DNA from: a bacterium
Lineage (GTDB): Bacteria > Patescibacteriota > Minisyncoccia > UBA6257 > WO2-44-18
Assembly (NCBI GenBank): GCA_030646995.1
Contig: JAUSKF010000004.1
Coordinates: 20,404-84,403 of the forward strand
DNA: 64,000 nucleotides
Direction: 5' to 3'
Shown: piece by piece, positions 5,485-49,561 of the stretch
How the letters are laid out: the number at the start of each line of letters is the position of its first letter
How positions within the stretch are numbered: position 1 is the stretch's first letter
The notes under the pieces: generated by a model
Seen by the model: the letters and a program-made list of their open reading frames with translations, nothing else
The model's database searches: none
Told to the model about the DNA's origin: nothing
Translations under genes and position numbers: made by a program

Positions 5485-6393
5485 ATGAAAAGACTAGTTT
5501 TCGCCCTGACATCTATAATCGCCCTAATAACCGCCTCCGGCGCAATTTTTGTGGGTTACAAGACTTATCAGCAGTTAACCTACCAACTGGAGGCCACACA
5601 AACTCAACTGGCCCTCTTAGAACGCTCCGTCGGCAATATACAAAACAAAACCACCGCCTCTCTCTCGAATCTTCAGGATAAAAACAAAACCCTATCCAAA
5701 GAATTGGAAAAGTCTCAAGGGGAATTGGAAGGCCTGTCTCTACCGCAGGATTTATTGCAGAACCTAATGGCACGTATCGTTTATGTTCAATGTAGGGATT
5801 CAGATAGCGCAGGGGATCGGGCGGGATCCGGAACCATCGGCTTGGTAAAAAGCACGGAAAGTGGCTTAGCGATTACGACCAACCTACACGTCACCGGATA
5901 TCCGACCTCTTTCTGTACCGCCCGACTACCAACTAGCCCAACTTATGAAAAACTTGGAGCAACGCGGCCGGCATTCGTGGGCAAATATGACAGCAATTAT
6001 CCGGATGTTGATGTGGCGCTAGTGCACGCGCAAAATGTGACGGAAAAGTTCGGGGTCTTCCCGATTCCCTTCTGCGCTCCAGCAGATATCAAAACCGGCA
6101 ACCCGATTACTTTATTCGGATACCCAAGCTTCGGCGGGAAAACCCTAACAATCACTGATGGAATTATCAGCGGAGTGCTACAAACTAAATGGGGGCCAAG
6201 ATATAAAACTTCTGCCAAAATTGATTTCGGCAACTCCGGCGGATTGGCGGTAGATAATAAACATCGCTGCGTAATCGGTATACCAACTTGGACTAAATTC
6301 GGCGGAGAGCTTGGGCAAAACCTAAGCACCGGAGAATCTCTGGGTCAAATCCAATCTTGGGAAATGATTAAAAAATCCGGAGAAATTTTCTAA
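5485..6393 (+). CDS. Membrane-anchored trypsin-like serine protease (S1 family) with N-terminal coiled coil
   Basis: N-terminal TM helix, coiled-coil stretch, DFGNSGG active-site serine motif; ORF 5437..6393 trimmed to MKRLVFALTS. Confidence 0.6.
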   Translation: MKRLVFALTSIIALITASGAIFVGYKTYQQLTYQLEATQTQLALLERSVGNIQNKTTASLSNLQDKNKTLSKELEKSQGELEGLSLPQDLLQNLMARIVYVQCRDSDSAGDRAGSGTIGLVKSTESGLAITTNLHVTGYPTSFCTARLPTSPTYEKLGATRPAFVGKYDSNYPDVDVALVHAQNVTEKFGVFPIPFCAPADIKTGNPITLFGYPSFGGKTLTITDGIISGVLQTKWGPRYKTSAKIDFGNSGGLAVDNKHRCVIGIPTWTKFGGELGQNLSTGESLGQIQSWEMIKKSGEIF

Positions 6394-12505: not shown

Positions 12506-12982
12506 ATGGAAGCAAAGACCTCCCCGAAAGATGTATTCCTACACCTCCTATCAATTGTTTCGCTATATACGAGCGGAATCGCTTTTTTAGTGCTGATTTT
12601 CCAATATGTGAATGTGCTCTTCCCCGATGCCGTAGCTGGAGATAATTATTATCAACTAGAGTCCGCTTATCGGATGATTCGATGGTCTATTTCTTCTCTA
12701 ATTATAGTTTTCCCGACCTATATTATCGCCACCTGGTTTTTGAATAAATCCTACGACAAAACTCCCGCCAAGAAAAAAATCTGGGTCCGAAAGTGGCTAG
12801 TCTATTTCACGCTCTTTGTCGCCGCGCTGATTATCATCGGCGACTTAGTAAGTCTGATTAACAATCTTCTCAACGGTGAATTAACGATGCGCTTCTTATT
12901 GAAGGTACTGGCTGTATTCTTTGTATCCGGAAATGTTTTTTATTACTACATCTGGGAGTTAAAACATAAAAAAGCTGAGTAA
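12506..12982 (+). CDS. DUF5671-like membrane protein
   Basis: 158 aa, 4 TM helices with DUF5671-like topology common in CPR. Confidence 0.45.
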   Translation: MEAKTSPKDVFLHLLSIVSLYTSGIAFLVLIFQYVNVLFPDAVAGDNYYQLESAYRMIRWSISSLIIVFPTYIIATWFLNKSYDKTPAKKKIWVRKWLVYFTLFVAALIIIGDLVSLINNLLNGELTMRFLLKVLAVFFVSGNVFYYYIWELKHKKAE

Positions 12983-13455
12983 TGAAATACTACGTTTATA
13001 CAATTATCGCAATTGTCGCGACATCGGTAGTAGCCGGTTTCTTTATCGTCGGCTCACCAAAAACTGCCCGCCTTTTCGAGCAAGACAATCAACGGCTCTC
13101 CAGTCTTCAAATGATTCAATCGGAAATAATTAATTTTTGGATTAACAAAGCAAGATTGCCGAAGATGCTTTCTGAATTAGAAGACGATATCCGCGGCGTG
13201 CGCATCCCGAGCGACCCCGAAACCGGCGCGCCTTATACCTACACCGTCACGGGAGCGGAAAGCTTTAAATTATGCGCCGTATTTGCAAAGCCAAGTCTAA
13301 TTTCAACCCGTTCAAATATTAGCCCGAAGCCTATACCGGCAATGTACTACGCAGAGCCGTACGCGCAAGATAATTGGCAACATGGCGAAGGAGAAGTTTG
13401 CTTTGATAGAACTATCGATAAGGAGATATACCGCCCGACCCCAATCAAGAAGTAG
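12982..13455 (+). CDS. Hypothetical secreted/anchored protein (pilin-like N-terminus?)
   Basis: 157 aa, single N-terminal TM; short hairpin terminator at ~13452-13470. Confidence 0.45.
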   Translation: MKYYVYTIIAIVATSVVAGFFIVGSPKTARLFEQDNQRLSSLQMIQSEIINFWINKARLPKMLSELEDDIRGVRIPSDPETGAPYTYTVTGAESFKLCAVFAKPSLISTRSNISPKPIPAMYYAEPYAQDNWQHGEGEVCFDRTIDKEIYRPTPIKK

Positions 13456-13496
13456 CTCGGCTACTTTTTGCTCTCTTACAAAAGGCTTGTTCGTAT

Positions 13497-13620
13497 TGCT
13501 TCTCGGACACAGAATAGCCCCACTCCAACGGTGGGGCTTTCTTCTCTCTCGGCGGTTAATCGTTCGTAAAATAATAACGAACGAACCAAGCTTAACCGCC
13601 TCCGAGATGTTCCTTAAAGC
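13497..13620 (+). repeat. Structured ~125-bp repeat element, copy A (family shared with 34014-34140 and 48568-48704)
   Basis: Shares CTCTCGGCGG-hairpin(GTTCGTTCG..CGAACGAAC)-CCAAGC..AACCGCCTCCGAGATGTTCCT core with copies B and C; 5' hairpin differs by compensatory changes. Confidence 0.7.
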
Positions 13621-13685
13621 AACACGACCAAGCCCCAAGACACCAAGAGAACAAAAAGTAGCCTCACTCATGTTGGGAGGCGTAG

Positions 13686-14462
13686 TTATTTTTTTGCGAA
13701 CAGCGATAACAGAAATACGGCCGCGCTGGATAAGACTACCAACGGCCCGGGGGGGAGATTGAAAGTAAACGCCAATAGAATGCCACCCAAGGCACTGACC
13801 GATCCTAGTATTACGCTCATAAAGCCATAGGTGCTGAAATTTTTCGCGATATTCTTTGAAGCAGCAGCCGGAATAACAACCAGCGCGCCCATTAATAAAG
13901 TTCCTACTACCTTCACGCCCAACGCCACAACCACCGCCACCAACGCCATAAACACAAAATTCCAGACACGCGTGTTAATTCCTTGGGACCGGGCGAGATC
14001 CGACGAAACTATGTCTAATAAAATCCGGCGACGAATTGCAAAAGTTGCCACCAGAACCACCAGCGACAAAACGACTCCCAAAATTGCGTCCATCAAATTA
14101 ACCTTGCTAATATCGCCGAACAACGACTCCAGTAATTCCGGCTCCGGAGTCACCAAGATGCCGACTGCCAGCGCCACGGCGAAAATAATACCCACAATCG
14201 CTTCGGCGGGAATATCCGTTTTCTCTTCTAGTTTCCAAACTAAGAATACTCCTACCGCCAAGGCAGAAAACGCCCCCAAGAAGGGATTTATACCATAAGT
14301 AAGGGCAATGCCAATGCCGGGCAGGGCAACGTGCGATAATGCATCCCCCACTAATGCCATGCGCTTCAAGACCATCAAAGAACCAAGGTAAGCCGAAGCC
14401 GCCCCCACAAATACACCCACTAAAATACTGGCGATTAAATTAGAATCAATGTTGGTGCTCAT
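13686..14462 (-). CDS. znuB: Metal (Zn/Mn) ABC transporter permease, ABC-3 family
   Basis: 258 aa, 7-8 TM helices, ABC-3 signature; overlaps ATPase gene. Confidence 0.75.
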   Translation of the reverse strand: MSTNIDSNLIASILVGVFVGAASAYLGSLMVLKRMALVGDALSHVALPGIGIALTYGINPFLGAFSALAVGVFLVWKLEEKTDIPAEAIVGIIFAVALAVGILVTPEPELLESLFGDISKVNLMDAILGVVLSLVVLVATFAIRRRILLDIVSSDLARSQGINTRVWNFVFMALVAVVVALGVKVVGTLLMGALVVIPAAASKNIAKNFSTYGFMSVILGSVSALGGILLAFTFNLPPGPLVVLSSAAVFLLSLFAKK

Positions 14463-33971: not shown

Positions 33972-35105
33972 TTATCGGAGCGGTTTTTGGTTGCAGAACA
34001 CCCTACATCTTTCGGCCAGACAGCTTCTCGGAAACAGAATAACTTTTCTCCTGCGGAAAAGTTTTCTTCGCTCTCGGCGGTTGTTCGTTCGATTATATAA
34101 ACGAACGAACCAAGCCCAACCGCCTCCGAGATGTTCCTCAAACCAATCTGACCGAAAGATGGGTACTTCCGTCGACGGAAGTAATAAATTTAGCCTCGCT
34201 TTTATTTTATTCGCGTTCCCATGCCCCAACATCCCCAAATATGACTGCCGGGATTGCTCATTTGGATTCTCTTTCAATCTCCGGAACATTTTCCACTTTG
34301 TGACGAAGCGAATAACCCTATGATCCGGGAAATGCACCCAGCCGAGAAAATCCACTCCCGAAACAAGGGTCTTCAGAAATAACTTGTCTTTGTGAATGAA
34401 TAATTTGAGATTCTCCTCAAGGAAATCCTGAATTTTCGGGATTATTTCCACAAGTCGTTCCTTGTCCGGAGACAAAAACACAAAGTCATCGGCGTATCTT
34501 ACGTAATGTCGGGCTTTGAGTTTATGCTTCACGAACTGGTCAAATTGATTCATATAAACATTAGCGAATAACTGGGAAGTGAGATTGCCGAGGGGCAGAC
34601 CAAAACCCGGCTTGGTGGAGAAACTACTTATGACATTCTCTAACAGCCAAATTATTTTCTGGTCGGGAATATATGCCTTCAGAATTTTGAGAAGAATCTG
34701 ATGATTAATGCTGTCAAAAAACTTTTTGATATCACACTTTAATACCCAGCAGGTTTTGGTGTGATTTTTGCTAACTTTATATGCTATCGCTCGGAAACGA
34801 TTAAGCGCTCGATGGGTTCCCTTTTTGATCCGGCAGGAAAACGAATCGGCAAAGAAAGTTTTATCAAAAAATGGATAAAGCAATCGGTGAATGGCGTGAT
34901 GAACGAGACGATCGCGAACTTCCGCCTTGTGAATGATGCGTGGTTTGGGGTCGGCGATTCGGAATTGATAATAGCCGCCGTGACGGTATCTTTGACTTGC
35001 CAACTCCCCGTGAAGCGATAGAATGTTATCCATAAGATTGAAACCGAATTCCTGCACATCCTTTTTACCTCGCTTCCCCTTCAAGAATTCCTGCCAAGCA
35101 ACCAA
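33972..35105 (-). CDS. Diversity-generating retroelement reverse transcriptase
   Basis: RT motifs incl. YADDFVF (motif C), GNLTSQLFANVY (DGR-type motif 4 with SQ), VDFLGW; N-terminal region colinear with Bordetella-phage-type bRT; last ~60 codons read through repeat element B and are probably not genuine. Confidence 0.85.
   Translation of the reverse strand: MVAWQEFLKGKRGKKDVQEFGFNLMDNILSLHGELASQRYRHGGYYQFRIADPKPRIIHKAEVRDRLVHHAIHRLLYPFFDKTFFADSFSCRIKKGTHRALNRFRAIAYKVSKNHTKTCWVLKCDIKKFFDSINHQILLKILKAYIPDQKIIWLLENVISSFSTKPGFGLPLGNLTSQLFANVYMNQFDQFVKHKLKARHYVRYADDFVFLSPDKERLVEIIPKIQDFLEENLKLFIHKDKLFLKTLVSGVDFLGWVHFPDHRVIRFVTKWKMFRRLKENPNEQSRQSYLGMLGHGNANKIKARLNLLLPSTEVPIFRSDWFEEHLGGGWAWFVRLYNRTNNRRERRKLFRRRKVILFPRSCLAERCRVFCNQKPLR
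34014..34140 (+). repeat. Structured ~125-bp repeat element, copy B; overlaps 3' end of RT ORF on opposite strand
   Basis: ~90% identical to copy C (48568-48704 reverse complement) and core-identical to copy A. Confidence 0.7.
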
Positions 35106-35166
35106 AAGATTTTCAATAGAAATTATATCCTCAAAACTATGACGGAATTGAATTCTACCTATAACG

Positions 35167-35176
35167 CCCCCCCCCC
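35167..35176. repeat. Homopolymeric C10 tract in divergent RT/avd promoter region
   Basis: ACGCCCCCCCCCCAGCC between RT start (35105) and avd start (35191). Confidence 0.8.
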
Positions 35177-35190
35177 AGCCGATTTTTCCG

Positions 35191-35532
35191 TTGTTGCATA
35201 AAATAAAAGATGCTTACGCGCTTTGGTATTCCTACTACCAGATTCTACCAAAAACCCACCGCTACTCGCTCGGCCAGAAAATTGACTCTCTTTTTGTAGA
35301 AATTATAGAAACCGTGGCTGCTGCCGGCTTTATCGCCAAGGAAAAGAAGCTGGCATATTTAAGTTTGGCGATTATGAAAGTAGATACGCTAAAAGTTTTG
35401 ATGATGGTTCTCTGGGAGAATAAATCGCTGAACGATAAAAAATATATTCAAATATCTTTTAAAATAAGCGAACTAGGAAAAATGCTTGGCGGCTGGCTGG
35501 GAAAGATTCAGAAACAAAACTCTCCCCGCTAA
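35191..35532 (+). CDS. avd: Avd-like accessory variability determinant (four-helix-bundle protein, TIGR02436-like)
   Basis: 113 aa, basic helical protein with pattern resembling 23S-IVS/four-helix-bundle family; divergent to RT and adjacent to TR. Confidence 0.65.
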   Translation: MLHKIKDAYALWYSYYQILPKTHRYSLGQKIDSLFVEIIETVAAAGFIAKEKKLAYLSLAIMKVDTLKVLMMVLWENKSLNDKKYIQISFKISELGKMLGGWLGKIQKQNSPR

Positions 35533-35544
35533 AAAGCGGGGAGA
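35521..35544. other. GC-rich hairpin flanking TR (DGR hairpin/cruciform candidate)
   Basis: CTCCCCGCTAAAAAGCGGGGAGAG; avd stop codon lies in loop. Confidence 0.6.
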
Positions 35545-35555
35545 GAAATAGATAG

Positions 35556-35690
35556 ATTTGCGACGACCGAACACCCAGACGTTGTCGGGATTCCAGAAGT
35601 TGTCAGCGTTGCCGTTGTTCGCGTTGAGCCAATGCTCATCGCTATTATGCTCCACGTTGAACACGTTCGGGTTGCCGTTCGAGTCAGTTA
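35556..35690 (-). repeat. DGR template repeat (TR), Asn/AAC-rich
   Basis: ~135 bp; coding-strand reads ...NGNPNVFNVEHNSDEHWLNANNGNADNFWNPDNVWVFGRRK; 24 of 25 mismatches vs VR lie at TR adenines. Confidence 0.85.
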
Positions 35691-35935
35691 TATATAAGAG
35701 GCTGCCTATGCCACCGCCCATTGAATACTCTCTGGGTTGTATCGAATTCCGTACCTAAAGTACGATAGCCTCTTATACCAAGTATCTCTATTTTTTTAGA
35801 GTTCTGCGCGCGCCACTCTATCTCCAACCTTGATCAGAAACACACTCGACACGCGGATACTGGATTCGGCAGCAAGGAACCTTAGTCCCCCGCGTATTCG
35901 CCTAATACCAAAATTATATTAACATACGCTAAAAA

Positions 35936-35970
35936 CAAAAACCCCCGCGCTCGAAAGCGCGGGGACAAAG
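35936..35970 (-). terminator. Intrinsic terminator after DGR target gene; doubles as VR-proximal hairpin
   Basis: CCCCCGCGCTCGAAAGCGCGGGG with T-run on minus strand. Confidence 0.65.
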
Positions 35971-36008
35971 AGTCAAAGGGCCAGGTCAAAAGTTCCAAGG
36001 ACTAAGAG

Positions 36009-36764
36009 CTACTTGCGACGACCGAACACCCAGACGTCGTCGGGATCCCAGAAGCGGCCAGCGTCGCCGTCGCTCGCGTGGAGCCAATGCCCACCGCCAT
36101 CCGGCTCCACGCAGAACACGAACGGGTAGCCGCTCGAGTCAGAAATCGGCTCCATTCCGACCAGAATCCATTCCCCGTAAGGCTGGTCCTGGTATTGGAG
36201 GCGGAGCTGGGGGCCGACTTCGGCAGGGCAGCGATCCAAGCCAAGCTCTTTGGCTTCGGCGTAGATCTGCTCGCGAGTGCCGCCACTGGGAAGTCCCAGT
36301 TGGGCGACCGTCATCTTGACCAGATCGATCTCTATCTCCTTGGGGTTGACCGAGATCTTTTTCAGAATGTCGTTGCCCCAGTCAGAGACCCGGTTTTTCT
36401 TGCCGATGATGGCCTTTCGGAGAGCCTCCGGAGACGGATGCGTTCCCAGCTTGAGGGTCTTCCAGACAGGAAGAGCGGAAGAGCATCGAATCGGCTTGAT
36501 CTCGCCAACCCTGGCAATCGCCTGGTCGATTCGGTCGCAGAACTGCTGAAGTCCGGTGATTTTTTCACCGAGCTCAGAACGAAGCACCTCCAAATCATTC
36601 TTGTGTGCCTGCTTCGCTTCCGAAAGCTGGTTTTCCAACTCTCCGATTTTCTTCACCTCTTCCTTGGCCTCCTCGCAAACTTTCGTCAAATCCCCACTCA
36701 AGTCGACGTCTTCTTCAGACTTCTTTTTTCCGCTCACCGGAGCTCTCCTGAATTGGGTTATCAA
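36009..36764 (-). CDS. DGR variable (target) protein: N-terminal coiled coil, C-terminal ligand-binding domain ending in VR
   Basis: C-terminus ...GYPFVFCVEPDGGGHWLHASDGDAGRFWDPDDVWVFGRRK encoded by VR; perfect TTGACA-17-TATATT promoter upstream. Confidence 0.8.
   Translation of the reverse strand: MITQFRRAPVSGKKKSEEDVDLSGDLTKVCEEAKEEVKKIGELENQLSEAKQAHKNDLEVLRSELGEKITGLQQFCDRIDQAIARVGEIKPIRCSSALPVWKTLKLGTHPSPEALRKAIIGKKNRVSDWGNDILKKISVNPKEIEIDLVKMTVAQLGLPSGGTREQIYAEAKELGLDRCPAEVGPQLRLQYQDQPYGEWILVGMEPISDSSGYPFVFCVEPDGGGHWLHASDGDAGRFWDPDDVWVFGRRK
36012..36147 (-). repeat. DGR variable repeat (VR)
   Basis: Matches TR over ~135 bp with adenine-specific substitutions (AAC->AGC/TAC/TTC/GAC/CAC etc.). 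Confidence 0.85.
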
Positions 36765-36803
36765 TTTTTATCCGCCGAATAGCGGATTTGTGAACTGCCG
36801 TAA

Positions 36804-36832
36804 ATATAGCAGAGTTGAGGCTATTTGTCAAC
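36804..36832 (-). promoter_or_regulatory. Sigma70 consensus promoter of DGR target gene
   Basis: TTGACA-17-TATATT on minus strand; paralogous promoter at 38407-38436. Confidence 0.6.
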
Positions 36833-36862
36833 CCCAACCTTTGGCCCTCCTTAGGGGGCAAC

Positions 36863-36950
36863 GGGGGGGGATATTGACTTAGTCCAAATGGAACGCTATA
36901 ATGGGGATACTAAACGTGAAGGGCATCCTATATGGGTGCCCTTCGTTTTT
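36863..36950 (+). promoter_or_regulatory. G8 tract + TTGACT-17-TATAAT promoter followed immediately by intrinsic terminator (tiny transcript unit)
   Basis: G8 36863-36870, -35 36874-36879, -10 36897-36902, hairpin GAAGGGCATCCTATATGGGTGCCCTTC 36918-36944 + T6. Confidence 0.5.
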
Positions 36951-37573
36951 TATTCCATTTTTATACGCTCTCTAAGATATTCGAAGTCCCTGAAATCACT
37001 GCCTGCAAACTGCTTGATTTCTTTAGCAGTCCTCGCTCCTCTACCTAAAACCACAACCTCTTTCTTCTCAGATCGAAGATGTTTCAATACGGGAAGGAAG
37101 TCTCCATCGCCTGACAAAACAAGAACTCTATCAAAATTGTCTTTTTCTCTCATTAAGTGAAAGGCCATATCCACATCACAATTAGCTTTTCTTTTTGTGG
37201 AACCGTCATCTTGGTTATATAGCTTTACTGGTTTAAGAAAAAGTTTGTATCCGAACTTCTCAAGACGAATATAGAATTTAACTCTTTGAAGATGTCTACT
37301 GATTAAAGCGAGCTGCGCTTCATTGAGCTTCCTGTCTTTGTTCTCGGGTAGCTGTCTCAAATACTTCTCTAGCTCTTTTAGAGGAACGGTCTCATTGGAT
37401 TGGTAATCATATGGAAATTCATAAATTTCCACGCCGCCAAAATAAAAAACCGTATCTACTCCATATTTTTCTTTTAGATACTCAAGGAGTTTTTTGTAGT
37501 CTATTTTCCAACCTAAACTCTTTTCGCCGCCATAAAAAAGATTGGATGCATCCACAAAACCATATGCTTTCAT
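36950..37573 (-). CDS. NYN-domain (LabA-like, PIN-fold) ribonuclease
   Basis: GFVDASNL..., ANCDVDMAFHLM, VLSGDGDF motifs of PF01936; AT-rich, sandwiched between the two DGR target paralogs. Confidence 0.7.
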   Translation of the reverse strand: MKAYGFVDASNLFYGGEKSLGWKIDYKKLLEYLKEKYGVDTVFYFGGVEIYEFPYDYQSNETVPLKELEKYLRQLPENKDRKLNEAQLALISRHLQRVKFYIRLEKFGYKLFLKPVKLYNQDDGSTKRKANCDVDMAFHLMREKDNFDRVLVLSGDGDFLPVLKHLRSEKKEVVVLGRGARTAKEIKQFAGSDFRDFEYLRERIKME

Positions 37574-37654
37574 GCGTCTATTTTATAATAAAAGCTCGCA
37601 ATAAAAAAGCCCTCATGAAGCTAGCTTCATGAGGGCGCCCAAGTGTCCAAGGGC

Positions 37655-38341
37655 CTAAGACTTGCGGACGGCGAGGAAACGATAGCTGCCGTACCAATCG
37701 CTGCCGAACCAGTAGAGATTGAGCTTCCGAACGTCGAACCAGTACAGATACGGCACGCGGCGGTTGCCGAACGAGCCCCGCCAAGGATTCCCGAGCCCGA
37801 CGATCGGATATTGCTTGTGCTCGTCGGGATGGGCCATCTGGTAGTGGAGGAGCGTCTTCAGGGAGGCCGGTTCGAAGCCGTCACGCTTCATCTCGGCGAC
37901 CACGTTGTCGGAATTCATGTCCCGACTGAAGTGATACATCTTGCACTCCAGCGTTTCCGTGCCGTCCGTCTTCTCCTGATTGAAATGCTTTTCCGTGATG
38001 TCGGAGTTGACGTAGCTAAACCCGGCTTCGCCGATGAGCTGAGAGATGGACTTTCCGTAGTTCACGATCAAGGAATTGTCCGGAGGCTTTCCGGATTTCG
38101 CGCGACCGAACTTGTCGATCACTGCCTGAATCTTCTCGGCCGTCGCTTTCGCGCTGGCCGCCACCTGCTCCATCTCCGACTTGGCTTCCTGAAGAACCTG
38201 CTCAGCTTCCTGCGACATCGTGTCTAGCTTGCCCTTGAGATCCTTATTGATCTCTTCCAAAGCAGCAATCACCGGGTCCCACATGTTCTGGCTGTTCTCC
38301 ACTGCCTCCTCCACGTCGGAAGACTTCTTTTCTTCGCTCAC
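37655..38341 (-). CDS. Paralog of DGR target protein (coiled-coil N-terminus; C-terminal region diverged from TR)
   Basis: Colinear with target 1 (…YQ..Y.IVG.G.P… then W/F/G-rich tail ending RKS); near-identical promoter/5'UTR to target 1 (TTGACA-18-TACATT). Confidence 0.6.
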   Translation of the reverse strand: MSEEKKSSDVEEAVENSQNMWDPVIAALEEINKDLKGKLDTMSQEAEQVLQEAKSEMEQVAASAKATAEKIQAVIDKFGRAKSGKPPDNSLIVNYGKSISQLIGEAGFSYVNSDITEKHFNQEKTDGTETLECKMYHFSRDMNSDNVVAEMKRDGFEPASLKTLLHYQMAHPDEHKQYPIVGLGNPWRGSFGNRRVPYLYWFDVRKLNLYWFGSDWYGSYRFLAVRKS

Positions 38342-38541
38342 GGCAATCTCCTTGAATTGGGTTTTCAGTTATTTTCCGCTTAATTGCGGACTTCAGAACT
38401 GCGGTAAATGTAGCACACTTTAGGCCTATTTGTCAAGAAGTCTGTTTAAGCACGCTAAAACCTCCTCAACGTCAACACCGCCTTCTCTAATAGACGTAAA
38501 ATCTATGATTGTTTCCCAGCCCTCTTCTTGTTTCTTTGACT

Positions 38542-38775
38542 CTAAAAATTTAGCCATTTGTCCTTTGGAATACCGGACTGCGCAATCATACCCTTGAAAG
38601 TTCGAGGTTTAAAAGTTTTTGATGAATGAAACGGTACGCAAACTTGCATCAATTTTCCCTCATAGACTCCGGTGAAAAAATGATGACTCCCCTCCGTATG
38701 ATTCAGGCGAAAACCGTGCTCTTTTAAAAACTCTACAACATCATGAAACGTCCAATTAAAAACCTTTCTAGGCAT
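38542..38775 (-). CDS. hicA: HicA-family toxin (mRNA interferase)
   Basis: 77 aa, YcfA/HicA pattern (…HTEGSHHFF…). Confidence 0.7.
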   Translation of the reverse strand: MPRKVFNWTFHDVVEFLKEHGFRLNHTEGSHHFFTGVYEGKLMQVCVPFHSSKTFKPRTFKGMIAQSGIPKDKWLNF

Positions 38776-39109
38776 GCACCAAGCTACGGTTACTCATGCT
38801 GCCAAAAGTAAACACGTTTGACGGCACATCTTCTTTATTAGACTTTTTTACCTCCAATGAGTTCCACATATTTTCATATTCGGAATCAGTTTTTTGATTC
38901 AAAATATGATTGATTCGAGCTTTGGCCTTTTTAGCTGATTTTAAATATCCACGGGTGGCTTCAAGCAAAAGGAACAGAGCCTCATCGGGCGTGTCGCCCG
39001 ATTCCACAATATTAAATTCCAAACCAACGCCATACCAAACACCCTCTTCGCGAAAGATTATATACCTTAAAGACCCTTTTTGCAGAGTATTTTGATGTAG
39101 TTTAGTCAT
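38768..39109 (-). CDS. hicB: HicB-family antitoxin (N-terminal HicB/UPF0150 domain)
   Basis: 113 aa, overlaps hicA start by 8 bp. Confidence 0.6.
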   Translation of the reverse strand: MTKLHQNTLQKGSLRYIIFREEGVWYGVGLEFNIVESGDTPDEALFLLLEATRGYLKSAKKAKARINHILNQKTDSEYENMWNSLEVKKSNKEDVPSNVFTFGSMSNRSLVHA

Positions 39110-39166
39110 TGACTGTTAGTTTAATTTTAACAGAGGGAGGGGGAGGGGTCAATCAGCTACCAAGCC

Positions 39167-40399
39167 CTACATCTGCCTTATTTCCTCCACTATCTTATCC
39201 AACCCAATCGCGCGGGAACCTTTTATCAATATCAAATCCCCTTTTTTCAATAAATCCTGCACCGGAATCCTTGCTTCATCTGCGAAGTCGAAAGTAAAAA
39301 TATTTTTCCTAGCCAGCCCGGCTTTCTGCGCGGCATCGGCAATAAACTTCGCTCTCGGCCCAACAGTTATGATAATATCAAAAACTTTTTCGGCTAACCG
39401 ACCGACGTTCTCATGAGCTTCAATTGCATACTTTCCAATCTCCAACATATCTCCCAGCACCGCTATTTTTCTTAGTGCCTTAAAATCTTTCATCGTATCA
39501 ATGGCGGCGTGCATTGAAAGCGGAGAGGCGTTATAGCTATCATCAAAAATTAAAGTATCTTTTATTCCTTTAATAATTCTACCGCGACGCTGTGGCACCT
39601 GATAATAAGCCAAGGCCTCCGAGATACGCACAAGATTCATACCGAAAGAAAATCCTACTGCTGCTGCTGCGGCGGCGGCATAAGCCTGAGCCCTACCAAA
39701 GGCTCCATCAAGACGAACCGGCACGAAACTGCCTCCATATTCCAATTTAAAAGTAAGACCGACAGGATGGCCGTCTTCCATTCTGTTTTCAAAATTAGTA
39801 ATCCGCACTTCGGCGCCACTCGCAAAACCAAAAGTAATCACGTGAGCGCGAGTCTTCTCCCTCATTTCATATACCGCCTCATCATCAAAATTCAGAACTG
39901 AAAAACCGATAGCCGGCAAAGCTTCAACCAATCTGGCTTTTTCCCGCGCCACCGCATCGGGCCCGCTATAAAACTCAACGTGCACAGGAATATCGCCGAT
40001 TGCCGTCACCACTCCGATCTGCGGCCGGGCCATCTCCAAAAGATATTTCAAATCGCCGGGCTTATCGGCTCCGTACTCCAATACCAAAATTTCCGGATAA
40101 GAGCCGCGAATCACTAGCCTCATCAAAGAGGAAAGAATCACTTTAATCCAGAAAAAAATACCCCCCGATTTTTCCCAAGTTCCTAAAATTGTGAGCGGCA
40201 AACCAAATTCATTATTAAAATTTCCGGTTGAGGCCCGAACTTTCCGGATTGAGCGTAGGGTCGTCAAAATCGCTTCTTTGGTAGAAGTCTTCCCTACGGT
40301 ACCGGTAATGCCCACAATTCCCGGCTGATACTTACGTAAAGTCCATCGCACCAGCAACCTCAAAATCCCCCTCAATTGATTGCGTAAAAATGATCGCAT
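39167..40399 (-). CDS. murF: UDP-N-acetylmuramoyl-tripeptide--D-alanyl-D-alanine ligase
   Basis: Mur ligase P-loop GITGTVGKTSTKE, Mur ligase C domain. Confidence 0.85.
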   Translation of the reverse strand: MRSFLRNQLRGILRLLVRWTLRKYQPGIVGITGTVGKTSTKEAILTTLRSIRKVRASTGNFNNEFGLPLTILGTWEKSGGIFFWIKVILSSLMRLVIRGSYPEILVLEYGADKPGDLKYLLEMARPQIGVVTAIGDIPVHVEFYSGPDAVAREKARLVEALPAIGFSVLNFDDEAVYEMREKTRAHVITFGFASGAEVRITNFENRMEDGHPVGLTFKLEYGGSFVPVRLDGAFGRAQAYAAAAAAAVGFSFGMNLVRISEALAYYQVPQRRGRIIKGIKDTLIFDDSYNASPLSMHAAIDTMKDFKALRKIAVLGDMLEIGKYAIEAHENVGRLAEKVFDIIITVGPRAKFIADAAQKAGLARKNIFTFDFADEARIPVQDLLKKGDLILIKGSRAIGLDKIVEEIRQM

Positions 40400-48382: not shown

Positions 48383-48425
48383 TGATAGATATTCTATATC
48401 AGTCTGAGGACAAAGTCAAAGGGCT

Positions 48426-48547
48426 ACGGGAATAGCCCCTCGGAAACGGCATAATTTGCTTCCGGCGAGCAAATTTGCCTCTCCCTCGCTTCGCCACTAT
48501 TAAGACCAAGCTGGCGAAGCTCCGGCATGTTCCTCGAAACTATTCCC
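48426..48547 (+). repeat. ~125-bp hairpin-rich element L with 8-bp terminal inverted repeats (GGGAATAG/CTATTCCC)
   Basis: ~85% identical to reverse complement of 49429-49556; internal stems show compensatory changes between copies. Confidence 0.7.
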
Positions 48548-48567
48548 TTCGCTCTTTTTAAGAGTAA

Positions 48568-48704
48568 GGCTAGACAGCTTTAAGGAACATCTCGGAGGCG
48601 GTTGTGCTTGGCTCGTTCGTTATGTCCGAACGAACAGCCGCCGAGAGAGAAGGAAACTTTTCCGCAGGAGAAAAGTTATTCTGCTTCCAAGAAGCTGTCT
48701 GGCC
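48568..48704 (-). repeat. Structured ~125-bp repeat element, copy C, with 13-bp terminal inverted repeats (GGCCAGACAGCTT/AAGCTGTCTAGCC)
   Basis: Reverse complement ~90% identical to copy B at 34014-34140. Confidence 0.7.
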
Positions 48705-48768
48705 GAGCCATTGACTTGAAAATACTGTAGGCGTACTTTTAAGGCAGCTACTTTTCAAGGAAAAGCCG

Positions 48769-49377
48769 ATGAAAAGCTTCATTGCTCTACTCGTTTCCGC
48801 GACTGCGATTTTTGCCTATCCCGACGAAGAAGTCAAAGAGGAAGCAAAGGCTCCTAACATCGAAGGCTGGACGGTTTCCGATGCGGATCCGCCCAAGCAC
48901 GGCTTCCAGGCCGTGCGTATGAGCAAGACCGGCACCGCCCTGAAGCCCGACGATGCACGCCAGCCCGTGATGGAAAGTGTTTTTTATGAAGACCCGGATA
49001 ACCCCGGCGAATACGGCGGCATCTACCGCTCCAAGAACGATAGGGGTGAATGGGTGACCTTCGCTAAGGTCTGGGGCATCAAAAAAGTTGAAGGTAAATA
49101 TATGCAGGATGAAGACAGGGACGGCAACGGCGTACCCGACGGCAACGGCGAGATGAACTATGCAGTTCTCGACGAAAACGGGAAATGGGTTCCCGGCTTG
49201 CCCGGAAAAACCATCATGGCCTGGAAGACCGTCTGGAACGACTCGGATACGAAAGACTATCCAGTCGGTTTCAGCTACTGCCTGTGTTATGAAGATGAAG
49301 GCGACGCCAGCGGTCTCTTTATGAAGACCGGAAATGTCTGGATTGAAAAGCCGGAAGCCGAAAAAGACGAAGAGTAA
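48769..49377 (+). CDS. GC-rich secreted acidic protein, unknown function
   Basis: Signal peptide MKSFIALLVSATAIFAY; Asp/Glu-rich; terminator at ~49381-49410; flanked by inverted copies of element L/R. Confidence 0.55.
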   Translation: MKSFIALLVSATAIFAYPDEEVKEEAKAPNIEGWTVSDADPPKHGFQAVRMSKTGTALKPDDARQPVMESVFYEDPDNPGEYGGIYRSKNDRGEWVTFAKVWGIKKVEGKYMQDEDRDGNGVPDGNGEMNYAVLDENGKWVPGLPGKTIMAWKTVWNDSDTKDYPVGFSYCLCYEDEGDASGLFMKTGNVWIEKPEAEKDEE

Positions 49378-49428
49378 AACCAAAACCCCTCTCATGAGGG
49401 GCTTTTTGTTGTTTTCAAATTAACCAAA

Positions 49429-49556
49429 GCGAAGGAAATAGCTTCGAGGAACATGCCGGAGTTTCGCCAGCTGGGTCTTTCAGAAGTGGCGAAACGAGGG
49501 AGAGGCAAATTGAGCCGCTGGAGCTCAATTATGCCGTTTCCGAGGAACTATTCCCG
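49429..49556 (-). repeat. Element R, inverted copy of element L
   Basis: Reverse complement aligns with 48426-48547 end to end. Confidence 0.7.
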
Positions 49557-49561
49557 GAGCC

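What the first reader, a model, noticed from the sequence alone, without database searches (positions are those of the whole stretch)
13497..13620. Three-copy ~125-bp structured element with compensatory hairpin changes (13.5 kb, 34.0 kb, 48.6 kb)
Copies A (13497-13620, +), B (34014-34140, +) and C (48568-48704, -) share a conserved core: CTCTCGGCGG, then a hairpin GTTCGTTCG..CGAACGAAC, then CCAAGCnnAACCGCCTCCGAGATGTTCCT. Two changes look compensatory. The 5' hairpin is AACTTTTC..GAAAAGTT in B and C but GCCCCAC..GTGGGGC in A. The inner loop and closing pairs also vary in a pair-preserving way between copies. B and C additionally share a 5' block GGCCAGACAGCTTCT, which in C is mirrored at the 3' end as a 13-bp TIR. 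Conserved structure together with TIRs suggests either a MITE-like mobile element or a small structured RNA family. The contexts differ: two copies lie between convergent genes and one in a divergent region, so a cis-leader role is unlikely.
Basis: seen in the sequence. Interest (0 to 1): 0.65.

Follow-up and report, generated by a model that had tools for sequence, protein, structure and literature searches.

The report
Structured dispersed repeat family in CPR bacteria
The three look-alike stretches are real: they are three of five copies in this window of an uncatalogued family of 140-180-base dispersed repeats in candidate-phyla-radiation bacteria, which fold into a conserved three-armed structure, differ in presence between close relatives, and sit at gene ends and beside promoters, with a function still unknown.

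Summary
A covariance model finds five copies in the window: A, B and C, plus divergent D (49431-49558 -) and E (48425-48550 +). About 40 homologs occur in at least 13 Patescibacteria assemblies.

All copies share one fold: a long variable basal stem, then a three-way junction (P1, P2, P3a/P3b-P4). 44 of 48 pairs show changes on both sides, and 93% of cells are paired against 64% in shuffles.

A few unpaired motifs are near-invariant: the P2 loop CUCCNGCGG, the internal loop UC/UCC, and CCAAGC.

No Rfam family matches, and my paper searches found no description.

Each of the five window copies is missing at the orthologous site of at least one close relative. B-C and D-E are recent duplicates, so the family is duplicative or mobile. 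At one syntenic locus, however, the element is better conserved than the neighbouring coding sequence.

Copies lie at gene 3' ends, often starting at the stop codon, in tail-to-tail pairs, or abutting -35 boxes, in either orientation. G-U pairs are about 1%.

Best reading: a new REP/ERIC/Correia-like structured interspersed repeat acting at transcript boundaries. A folded-DNA recombination substrate, an sRNA family and a ribozyme are not excluded.

The parts
13488..13630 (+). Copy A (family 1). The core hairpin is enclosed by a further 19-nt inverted repeat, so the whole foldback spans about 13459-13663.
   Evidence: cmsearch gives 134.8 bits with R1 and 133.1 with R2. Extended fold. It lies between a hypothetical gene (12982-13455 +) and an ABC-3 permease (13686-14462 -). 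The orthologous site is empty in L253 and L250-252.
34006..34161 (+). Copy B (family 1), including the outer helix CATCTTTCGG/CCGAAAGATG. The model match is 34013-34154.
   Evidence: cmsearch gives 135.6 and 132.6 bits. Inverted-repeat arms 34006-34033 and 34134-34161. B is the first sequence inside a 5.15-kb island that is absent from L246 and L247.
34030..34035 (+). B: P1 5' strand GGAAAC, which pairs with GUUCC at 34133-34137.
   Evidence: P1 is 95% paired, and 3 of 5 pairs show changes on both sides (GGAA/UUCC, GAGAA/UUCUC, AGCAA/UUGCU).
34036..34067 (+). B: P2 hairpin, a 12-bp stem with one bulge. The apical loop UCCUGCG is at 34049-34055 (family consensus CUCCNGCGG).
   Evidence: 12 of 12 pairs show changes on both sides, and 98.9% of cells are paired.
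34071..34075 (+). B: P3a 5' strand CUC (34071-34073), followed by the conserved unpaired UC (34074-34075).
   Evidence: Register B is 95.8% paired, with CUC/GAG, CCC/GGG, CGC/GCG and GUC/GAC variants. Register A is 92.4% paired with no changes on both sides.
34076..34124 (+). B: P3b (GGCGGUUG/CCCAACCGCC region), enclosing the P4 hairpin (34084-34091 with 34102-34109) and the conserved internal loop CCAAGC (34110-34115).
   Evidence: P3b has 8 of 8 pairs with changes on both sides and is 97.8% paired. P4 has 7 of 8. P4 is absent from L084, L095 and L070.
34125..34137 (+). B: conserved unpaired UCC (34125-34127), P3a 3' strand GAG (34128-34130), then A-U, then P1 3' strand GUUCC (34133-34137).
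   Evidence: UCC is kept in every subfamily, including those where P1 and P3 sequences differ.
48567..48705 (-). Copy C (family 1). It is 87% identical to B and sits tail-to-tail with E, 16 nt away. Its 5' flank supplies TTGACT, the -35 box of a promoter-like site facing the gene 48769-49377.
   Evidence: cmsearch gives 133.4 and 131.6 bits. Identity. Flank sequence. Absent from the syntenic loci L241 and L243.
48425..48550 (+). Copy E (divergent subfamily 2, P3b GCUUCGCC/GGCGAAGC). The outer helix extends the element to 48418-48557. Its 5' flank overlaps the -35 (TTGACT) of the predicted rpsP promoter at 48419-48391.
   Evidence: cmsearch gives 76 bits with R1 and 99.2 with R2. Fold. Promoter scan. 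An element in the same position and orientation relative to rpsP exists in L244.
49431..49558 (-). Copy D (subfamily 2, 85% identical to E). The outer helix reaches 49425-49565 and includes the UAG stop codon of the SMC gene (49562-51760 -). D is followed by the bidirectional terminator at 49382-49405.
   Evidence: cmsearch gives 78.2 and 100.8 bits. Fold. Terminator. The orthologous site is empty in L243, and filled by a different variant in L244.

Best explanation
These are copies of a previously uncatalogued family of interspersed, duplicative structured repeats of Patescibacteria. The family is the same general kind of thing as REP/BIME, ERIC and Correia elements.

Each copy is a long imperfect foldback. 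Its basal stem differs in sequence from copy to copy, and its top is a conserved three-way junction.

Shown:
- The family is real.
- The fold is maintained by compensatory change in every helix.
- A few unpaired nucleotides are near-invariant.
- Copies are gained or lost between close relatives and are duplicated within a genome.
- Copies occupy transcript boundaries, in either orientation.

Inferred:
- The element is carried on the transcripts of its neighbours. This is clearest for D and its counterpart in L244, which lie between a stop codon and a terminator.
- There it acts as a boundary module. The long A/U-flanked foldback with a U-rich 3' tail works as a terminator-like, 3'-end-protecting hairpin.
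- The 5' end can supply an outward -35 box to the next gene.
- The conserved junction, with its two exposed UCC/CUCC motifs, is the docking site for one trans-acting factor. That factor could be an RNA-binding protein or the enzyme that copies the element.

How new copies are made is unknown.
For: Family and fold:
- The exact 18-mer scan gave about 28 true homologs, all in CPR assemblies.
- The metagenome scan added 6 more.
- Covariance-model searches give 40 or more copies.
- 92.7% of cells are paired, against 64.3% in shuffles and 40-48% when partners are slid.
- 44 of 48 pairs show changes on both sides.

Not catalogued:
- Rfam gave nothing.
- Paper searches gave nothing.

Turnover:
- The syntenic 22-kb loci L241 and L243 have no copy where the window has C, D and E.
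- The A site is empty in L253 and L250-252.
- The B site is empty in L246 and L247.
- L070 has a copy after the ABC-F gene where the window has none.
- B-C are 87% identical and D-E 85%.
- L016 and L033 carry different subfamilies at one orthologous site.

Selection:
- At the syntenic L080/L089 locus the element is about 92% identical outside P2, while the adjoining coding DNA is about 80% identical.

Position:
- At least 7 copies start at the stop codon of a co-directional gene.
- D and L244a lie between a stop codon and an intact terminator.
- The sense 3' flank is T-rich at +4 to +14.
- Most copies between convergent genes have no other terminator.
- 8 copies abut a TTGAC -35 box with a 17-18-nt spacer and a good -10.
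- Tail-to-tail pairs recur: window E/C, L095, L079 and L016.
- No protein family recurs next to the copies.
Against: - No expression data exist, so transcription of any copy is inferred only from gene and terminator layout.
- A and B are separated from the upstream gene by that gene's own terminator. Read-through transcription may therefore be low.
- Orientation relative to flanking genes is close to random, which is odd for a one-strand RNA function.
- G-U pairs are about 1%, and A-C mismatches are at least as common. That fits a structure which must pair on both strands, or as DNA.
- A plain terminator or stabiliser does not need a conserved three-way junction.
- The U-tract is weak or absent in several copies.
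- No mobilising enzyme, conserved terminal repeat or regular target duplication was found.
Confidence: 0.45

Rival explanations
1. The conserved fold works as single-stranded or extruded DNA. It would be the substrate of a trans-encoded transposase or recombinase, as with REP/RAYT, IS200/IS605 ends, integron attC or the folded attP of CTX phage. On this reading the conserved junction and unpaired bases are protein-recognition features, the element is essentially selfish, and any effects on transcripts are side effects.
For: - There are almost no G-U pairs and no strand asymmetry.
- Both strands fold about equally well.
- Orientation is independent of the neighbours.
- Presence and absence change rapidly between relatives.
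- B is the first sequence inside a 5.15-kb island flanked by the 10-bp direct repeat CCCTACATCT. B's outer helix is built from that repeat and an inverted copy of it, with a 3-nt bulge. This resembles a recombination core at the base of a folded site.
- Tail-to-tail doublets recall REPINs.
Against: - No Y1 transposase, tyrosine recombinase or integron integrase recurs near copies. None was seen among the window ORFs scanned, which were about 45 of 70.
- The other four window copies show no flanking repeat.
- The syntenic L080/L089 copy has been kept under stronger constraint than the coding DNA beside it, which is unexpected for a purely selfish site.
- The sense-strand U-rich tail and the stop-codon abutment suggest a transcript-level role.
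Confidence: 0.25
2. The copies are independent genes for a multi-copy ('sibling') small RNA of about 110-170 nt, possibly excised from longer transcripts by cleavage in the long basal stem. The two exposed C/U-rich motifs (the CUCC loop and the UCC internal loop) would act in trans. They could pair with GGAG-type ribosome-binding sites or titrate a protein such as a KH-domain RNA binder.
For: - Unpaired motifs are near-invariant in all subfamilies, even where P1 and P3 sequences change.
- The basal stem covaries but is not conserved in sequence, as expected for a processing stem.
- Copies in divergent regions (C, E, L033, L086) are not in anyone's 3' UTR and would need their own promoter.
- Some copies are followed by their own terminator: D, L089, L008 and L244a.
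Against: - No convincing sense-strand promoter was found upstream of A, B, C or E. A and B begin 15-30 nt after another gene's terminator.
- Close relatives lack any copy in 10-22-kb syntenic stretches, so individual genes are dispensable.
- G-U pairs are unusually rare for a functional RNA.
- Many copies start at a stop codon, leaving no room for a promoter.
Confidence: 0.15
3. The conserved three-way junction is a catalytic or ligand-binding RNA: a new self-cleaving ribozyme that trims transcripts, or a regulated terminator whose basal stem closes when the junction binds a ligand.
For: - The architecture is typical of small ribozymes and aptamers. It is compact, has a few invariant unpaired nucleotides at a junction and internal loops, and has freely covarying stems.
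- It is multi-copy and intergenic, like many bacterial hammerhead and twister loci (from general knowledge).
- Two alternative pairings exist for the 3' strand in family 1.
- The basal stem is followed by a U-rich tail.
Against: - There is no match to any Rfam ribozyme or riboswitch model, even at E up to 10.
- At least 15 of 27 copies have no co-directional downstream gene to regulate.
- The P4 arm and the CCAAGC loop are dispensable in some members.
- The low G-U content and the orientation independence argue against a strictly RNA-level role.
Confidence: 0.07
4. The similarity is trivial: terminator fragments or chance inverted repeats.
For: The copies lie where terminators lie, and they have A/U-rich flanks.
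Against: - A 21-mer is shared exactly by three copies, with 0 expected by chance.
- Model scores are 76-145 bits across 40 copies in many genomes.
- The branched fold is conserved with covariation.
Confidence: 0.01

Closest known systems
ERIC / IRU (enterobacterial repetitive intergenic consensus, about 127 bp)
   Same: - It is an imperfect-palindrome repeat of similar size.
- It is confined to intergenic, transcribed regions and occurs in either orientation.
- It is conserved across genera.
- Copy presence differs between close relatives.
- Its function is still unclear.
(ERIC properties are from general knowledge.)
   Different: - There is no sequence relation.
- This element is branched (a three-way junction) rather than a simple foldback.
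- Its basal arms are not conserved in sequence.
- It occurs in tiny CPR genomes, at roughly one copy per 13 kb in this window.
Correia elements (CREE/NEMIS) of Neisseria
   Same: - It is a 100-160-bp intergenic repeat.
- Copies can supply outward promoter elements and terminator-like hairpins to neighbouring genes.
- Their long stems are RNase III targets.
- Copies differ between strains.
(Correia properties are from general knowledge. Outward -35 boxes were seen here.)
   Different: - Correia elements have conserved 26-bp terminal inverted repeats and a TA target duplication.
- Here the arms vary and no regular duplication is seen.
- RNase III cleavage was not tested.
REP / BIME / REPIN with RAYT transposase
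   Same: - It is a high-copy structured intergenic repeat at gene 3' ends.
- Inverted doublets occur.
- Roles are known both at the DNA level (mobilisation, protein binding) and the RNA level (3'-end protection, attenuation, effects when close to stop codons).
(From general knowledge.)
   Different: - REPs are 20-40-nt simple hairpins with a conserved GTAG.
- No RAYT-like gene was found near any copy.
- This element is about five times longer and branched.
Folded single-strand recombination sites (integron attC; CTX phage attP(+))
   Same: - They are 60-150-nt foldbacks conserved in structure more than in sequence.
- They carry unpaired or extrahelical bases.
- They sit at the edge of inserted DNA, with a short core repeated at both junctions.
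- Copy B sits at the edge of the DGR island with CCCTACATCT on both sides.
   Different: - There is no integrase, no array and no common orientation.
- The internal sequence is strongly conserved, unlike attC.
- Only one of the five window copies is at an island edge.
Sibling small RNAs with C-rich loops (e.g. LhrC1-5 of Listeria, csRNAs of streptococci)
   Same: They are multi-copy structured RNAs of about 100-150 nt that expose UCC/CUCC-type motifs able to pair with ribosome-binding sites (from general knowledge).
   Different: - Those are promoter-driven genes at fixed loci.
- Here no promoters were found.
- Copies are gained and lost between close relatives.
- Orientation and position look like those of an inserted repeat.

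Membership tests
Any Rfam 15 family (riboswitches, ribozymes, sRNAs, 6S, SRP, 5S, Y RNA and others) | A match to the family covariance model at or near its gathering score | tested here: not met
   At the gathering threshold, the whole window gives only two tRNAs. In E-value mode on B and on the C/D/E region, the best hits are 10-23 bits against cut-offs of 39-111 bits.
MITE | Terminal inverted repeats conserved in sequence among copies | tested here: not met
   The basal arms pair in every copy, but all 12 of their positions vary between copies. Only recent duplicates (B and C) share arm sequence.
MITE | A target-site duplication of fixed length flanking each copy | tested here: not met
   Filled and empty sites were compared for D and A, and no duplication was seen. 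The only direct repeat found, 10 bp, flanks the whole 5.15-kb island that begins with B.
MITE | A related autonomous element encoding a transposase | tested here: inconclusive
   No recurrent protein was found in 29 loci plus the window flanks. No full-length version with an internal ORF was found among the hits. Whole genomes could not be searched.
REP / REPIN | A short (20-40 nt) palindrome with a conserved 5' GTAG, plus a RAYT gene flanked by REPs | tested here: not met
   The element is 140-205 nt and branched. No Y1-transposase-like neighbour was found.
Riboswitch / cis leader | The element lies upstream of, and on the same strand as, the regulated gene in most members | tested here: not met
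   At least 15 of 27 copies face a convergent gene on their 3' side. C and E lie upstream of the predicted promoters, not in the leaders.
Intrinsic terminator | A stem immediately followed by a U-tract on the transcribed strand, at the end of a transcription unit | tested here: inconclusive
   The sense 3' flank is T-rich (about 38% against 25% for the antisense side). L070 and E have clear U-runs. Many copies have weak tails, however, and D and L244a are followed by a separate classical terminator.
Integron attC | R''/R' core sites (RYYYAAC/GTTRRRY), arrays in a single orientation, and an integron integrase or CALIN context | tested here: not met
   The copies are 14-20 kb apart or in opposite orientation. 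The arms show no core consensus. No integrase was found among the scanned ORFs.
DGR component (TR/VR or accessory RNA) | An adenine-specific mismatch pattern between repeats, or a position within the avd-TR-RT transcript | tested here: not met
   Differences between A, B and C are not adenine-specific. The true TR/VR pair lies elsewhere (35558-35687 and 36013-36142), with 20 of 21 mismatches at TR adenines. B is on the strand opposite the RT gene and beyond its 3' end.
Structured nucleic-acid family in general | Helices supported by compensatory changes beyond what shuffles and shifted registers give | tested here: met
   No shuffle out of 500 reaches the observed value on any of the five measures. 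The covariation score is 0.67, against 0.09-0.15 for slid registers.

The most novel reading that the evidence does not exclude
The element is a new class of folded-nucleic-acid recombination or mobility module specific to candidate-phyla-radiation bacteria. Its conserved three-way junction would be recognised by an as-yet-unidentified enzyme. That enzyme would copy the element, and could carry adjacent cargo such as the DGR/HicA island that begins with copy B, into sites at gene ends, building the variable basal stem from an inverted copy of the target sequence. Alternatively and equally novel, the junction is a new self-cleaving or protein-recruiting RNA used genome-wide to define transcript ends in these minimal genomes.
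Probability: 0.2. Interest if true: 0.85.

Novelty: new variant of a known kind. Interest (0 to 1): 0.62.

Why it matters
CPR/Patescibacteria genomes are about 1 Mb, tightly packed, and usually described as nearly free of repeats and mobile DNA. A repeat that fills five intergenic gaps in 64 kb of such a genome is unexpected. It keeps a branched fold through wholesale compensatory change, and at one syntenic locus (L080/L089) it is held more constant than the coding DNA beside it. Yet it differs in presence between relatives whose proteins are 75-88% identical.

If it defines transcript ends or supplies promoters, it is part of how these minimal genomes organise expression. If it is a recombination or mobility substrate, it points to an unknown enzyme and to a route by which accessory islands (here a DGR plus a toxin gene) enter CPR chromosomes.

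There are practical uses too. The elements break short-read assemblies (three contigs here end inside a copy). The covariance model built here could annotate them and could seed an Rfam or repeat-library entry.

Tried and rejected
- **Rfam.** The gathering threshold on the window and E-value mode on two sub-regions gave no family.
- **Single-sequence MFE fold.** The pairing 5' UCUCGGA with UCCGAGA was rejected. It has 24 broken cells, and L158 cannot form it.
- **First P3a register.** UCUC/GAGA with a 3-nt bulge was replaced by CUC/GAG with a UC/UCC internal loop, after divergent copies showed CCC/GGG, CGC/GCG and GUC/GAC.
- **Riboswitch or leader.** Rejected on context.
- **Protein-coding on the reverse strand.** tblastn 'hits' to the last 55 aa of the RT ORF are only translated element. 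Loop lengths differ by non-multiples of 3, and stems covary.
- **DGR TR/VR or RT-linked RNA.** No other locus has an RT nearby, and the real TR/VR pair is elsewhere.
- **K-turn in P3.** The two bases opposite the GA step are U and C in Watson-Crick pairs, so this is not a K-turn (reading of the sequence).
- **Twister-like similarity (CCAAGC, CCGCC-U).** The topology does not fit and Rfam models do not match.
- **Insertion into terminator loops.** Refuted at the D site, where the terminator is intact downstream of the element.
- **Phage origin.** The two viral-contig matches to the 18-mer are chance.
- **Linked partner protein.** ORF clustering across loci found none.
- **Strand assignment from G-U against A-C counts.** Uninformative.
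- **Literature.** Seven searches on CPR ncRNAs and repeats found no description.
Full report
**1. Checking the observation.**
The 21-mer AACCGCCTCCGAGATGTTCCT is exact in all three, and no shuffle of the window gives a single match.
- A lies between a hypothetical gene and an ABC-3 permease that converge.
- B lies between an RRM-protein gene and a reverse-transcriptase gene that converge.
- C lies in a divergent region next to rpsP.

**2. The family beyond the window.**
Rfam 15 has nothing that matches. The window gives only two tRNAs at gathering thresholds, and E-value mode on B and on the C/D/E region gives only noise.

I scanned one genome per bacterial species for the invariant 18-mer CCGCCTCCGAGATGTTCC. 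It returned 117 loci. Most are coding-sequence coincidences in GC-rich genomes. About 28 are clear homologs, and all of these are in Patescibacteria assemblies:
- The records are labelled Saccharibacteria, Parcubacteria, Harrisonbacteria or 'Patescibacteria group'.
- One MAG carries up to eight copies.

A metagenome scan anchored on the P2 loop and junction was largely wasted on a conserved coding region. It still added six more divergent members.

I built a covariance model from 31 sequences and a second from 40. With filters off, they find exactly five copies in the window:
- A, B and C.
- D, at 49431-49558 (-).
- E, at 48425-48550 (+).

The models also find extra divergent copies in many of the 8-kb loci. 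Matches to the 18-mer in viral contigs are chance.

**3. Anatomy.**
The comparative fold differs from the single-sequence fold. All members share these parts:
- A long basal stem (P0, 12-25 bp with mismatches) whose sequence differs from copy to copy.
- P1, GGAA(A)C/GUUCC in the main subfamily. Variants are GAGAA/UUCUC, AGCAA/UUGCU and GGGAA/UUCCC.
- P2, a 12-bp hairpin with one bulge and the loop CUCCNGCGG.
- A short junction.
- P3a, three pairs: CUC/GAG, CCC/GGG, CGC/GCG or GUC/GAC.
- A conserved internal loop, 5' UC opposite 3' UCC.
- P3b.
- A variable P4 hairpin beside a conserved CCAAGC loop. P4 is missing in L070, L084 and L095.

Counts on the 40-sequence alignment:

| Measure | Observed | Control |
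|---|---|---|
| Cells forming a standard pair | 92.7% | 64.3% in shuffles; 40-48% with slid partners |
| Pairs with changes on both sides | 44 of 48 | - |
| Shuffles reaching the observed value | 0 of 500, on all five measures | - |

Two alternatives were tested and are worse:
- A four-pair P3a register has no changes on both sides and 12 broken cells.

G-U pairs are very rare. P2 has about 0.6% (3 of about 470 cells, read from the pair table). A-C mismatches are as common as G-U or more so. Both strands fold with similar or better predicted stability. The data therefore prove a conserved fold but do not say which strand folds, or whether it folds as RNA or as DNA.

**4. Where the copies sit.**
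Flanking genes are ordinary housekeeping genes: rplU, tuf, pnp, recR, dnaJ, ftsH, smc and rpsP. Clustering of all ORFs in the family loci found no recurrent neighbour. Several regularities stand out:

- **Stop codons.** At least seven copies begin at the stop codon of a co-directional upstream gene: D, L244a, L070, L089, L080, L117 and L012. D and its counterpart in L244 sit exactly between the SMC stop codon and an intact bidirectional terminator.
- **Convergent genes.** Many copies fill the whole gap between convergent genes and are the only hairpin there. The sense-strand 3' flank is T-rich at +4 to +14, and an A-rich run precedes the element.
- **Tail-to-tail pairs.** Pairs 15-60 nt apart recur: window E/C, L095, L079 and L016.
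- **Outward promoters.** In eight copies that face a divergent gene, the 5' outer flank is GTCAA(N)GGC. Its complement TTGAC is the -35 box of an outward promoter-like site with a 17-18-nt spacer and a good -10. Examples are E to rpsP, C to the 202-aa gene, L033 and L016 (TTGACA/T-17-TATAAT), L037 to tuf, L086, L008 and L244b.
- **Orientation.** Overall orientation relative to the neighbours is close to random. That excludes a leader or riboswitch role.

**5. Turnover and constraint.**
The window belongs to a Patescibacteria MAG. Its closest relatives have SMC proteins 84-88% identical. Each orthologous site tells the same story:

| Window site | Empty in close relatives | Other states |
|---|---|---|
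| C, D, E | 22-kb syntenic loci L241 and L243 have no copy. In L243 the SMC stop is followed by 22 nt and a terminator, and the rpsP upstream region is only 119 nt. | L244 has a copy at the D site and one abutting the rpsP promoter, but of different sequence variants. |
| A | L253 (86% identical permease; a single terminator fills a 29-nt gap) and L250-252. | L249 holds unrelated sequence. |
| B | L246 and L247. | - |

Further points:
- L070 has a copy after the ABC-F gene, and the window has none there.
- Within the window, B and C are 87% identical and share otherwise variable stems. D and E are 85% identical. The two subfamilies are only 53-62% alike.
- L016 and L033 carry different subfamilies at one site whose flanks are about 95% identical by eye.
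- These facts show duplication and gain or loss on a short timescale.
- Against a purely decaying selfish repeat, the syntenic L080/L089 pair is about 92% identical outside P2, while the adjoining coding sequence is about 80% identical. The P2 differences there are compensatory.

**6. Copy B and the island.**
Compared with L246, the window carries a 5.15-kb insertion (34011-39164) between the RRM gene's terminator and the 3' end of a Mur ligase gene. The insertion is flanked by the direct repeat CCCTACATCT, and the empty site has one copy, TTCTACATCT. The island contains:
- B at its very left edge.
- A diversity-generating retroelement. Its parts are the RT (RVT_1) and bAvd, a template repeat at 35558-35687, and a variable repeat at 36013-36142. 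20 of 21 mismatches fall at template adenines.
- A NYN-domain gene.
- A HicA toxin gene.

B's outer helix (CATCTTTCGG/CCGAAAGATG, then CCC/GGG across a 3-nt bulge) is built from the duplicated target and an inverted copy of it. A is likewise enclosed by a 19-nt inverted repeat of its flank.

This hints that outer stems arise by inverted duplication of the target, or that B acts as a folded attachment site. It is one case, though, and the D and A junctions show no duplication. The RT ORF runs on through the antisense of B for about 55 codons that are only translated element.

**7. Interpretation.**
*Shown:* this is a real, widespread, uncatalogued family of branched foldback repeats. It is under selection for its fold and for a few unpaired motifs, it is duplicative, and it is placed at transcript boundaries.

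*Inferred:* the copies ride on neighbouring transcripts and act as boundary modules. The foldback would serve as a terminator-like or 3'-protective hairpin, with an occasional outward -35 box. The conserved junction would be the docking site of one trans factor.

I put about 0.45 on this REP/ERIC/Correia-like reading. The main rival, at 0.25, is that the fold works as DNA for an unknown recombinase or transposase. The near absence of G-U pairs, the orientation independence and the B junction favour that rival. A sibling-sRNA family (0.15) and a ribozyme or ligand-controlled terminator (0.07) remain possible. Chance is excluded.

**8. Comparison with known systems and novelty.**
The element behaves most like ERIC and Correia elements and, more loosely, REP/REPIN. 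It fails the defining tests for these families:
- MITE: conserved terminal repeats, a regular target duplication, and a parent IS.
- REP: size, the GTAG motif, and a RAYT gene.
- attC: core sites, arrays, and an integrase.
- Riboswitch: position relative to the regulated gene.
- DGR components, and every Rfam family.

I therefore class it as a new variant of a known kind, the bacterial structured interspersed repeat. Its unusual features are a branched core whose invariant 18-mer is shared by assemblies labelled as different CPR groups, and a high density in a minimal genome.

One caveat on breadth. Record labels are inconsistent: a MAG labelled Saccharibacteria has an SMC protein 88% identical to the window's, whose other relatives are labelled Parcubacteria or Harrisonbacteria. 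The true phylogenetic span may be narrower than the labels suggest.

Noticed in passing
window 34150-36764: A complete diversity-generating retroelement. The RT (ORF 33972-35105 -, RVT_1, with a LGNLTSQLFANVY motif) is on the minus strand and bAvd (35191-35532) on the plus strand. The template repeat is 35558-35687. The variable repeat, 36013-36142, lies at the 3' end of gene 36009-36764 (-). 20 of 21 mismatches fall at template adenines.
   Followed up: yes
window 34001-34010 and 39165-39174: A 5.15-kb accessory island (element B, the DGR, a NYN-domain gene and a HicA toxin) is flanked by the 10-bp direct repeat CCCTACATCT. It is absent from the relatives L246 and L247, whose empty site carries one copy (TTCTACATCT). 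The integration mechanism is unknown, and no integrase was seen in the island.
   Followed up: partly
window 38542-38775 (-) and 38768-39109 (-): A HicA toxin gene (Pfam E = 8e-12) is preceded by a 113-aa gene with no Pfam match. By position and sequence it looks like the HicB-type antitoxin partner.
   Followed up: partly
window 33972-34160 (-): The RT ORF has no stop until 33972. Its last 55 or so codons are the antisense of element B, the duplicated target and part of the RRM gene's terminator. The element may have displaced the original stop codon.
   Followed up: partly
window 48391-48419 (-), 48711-48740 (+); L033 about 935-975; L016 about 5945-5985; L244 13217-13250: The complement of the element's 5' flank (TTGAC) serves as the -35 box of outward promoter-like sites (17-nt spacer, -10 of TAGAAT, TATAAT or TACTTT) that face rpsP, tuf, a tRNA and other genes. 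In L243, which lacks the element, the region upstream of rpsP contains no TTGAC box.
   Followed up: partly
L240 (end at 1579), L245 (end at 5608), L244 (end at 13317), L016, L094: Several short-read contigs end inside or just beside a copy of the element. This suggests the repeat breaks metagenome assemblies of these organisms.
   Followed up: no
window 13459-13477 and 13645-13663: A 19-nt inverted repeat (GGCTACTTTTTGCTCTCTT / AAGAGAACAAAAAGTAGCC) encloses copy A. It doubles as the U-tracts of the two convergent genes' terminators. In the relative L253 a single bidirectional terminator stands here instead.
   Followed up: partly
L249 3960-4140: At the site orthologous to copy A, this relative carries about 180 nt of unrelated GC-rich sequence with a T-arm-like GGGATCGAAGTC motif on the strand opposite to that displayed. 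It could be a tRNA-like or other RNA gene. Not analysed.
   Followed up: no
L016 5715-5800 and L033 1075-1160: A tRNA-like gene and two conserved non-coding blocks lie between the element and the downstream 611-aa gene in both genomes. The promoter that uses the element's -35 box appears to drive them.
   Followed up: no
record titles of L008/L079/L244 (CAZDBT): An assembly labelled 'uncultured Candidatus Saccharibacteria' has an SMC protein 88% identical to the window's. The window's other relatives are labelled Parcubacteria or Harrisonbacteria. Taxon labels of these MAGs look unreliable, so the family's apparent breadth across CPR classes needs checking against GTDB.
   Followed up: no
window 36717-36821 and 38321-38425: A 105-nt direct repeat (76% identity) covers the 5' ends of two minus-strand genes in the island (36009-36764 and 37655-38341). 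They may be paralogous DGR-target-like genes.
   Followed up: no
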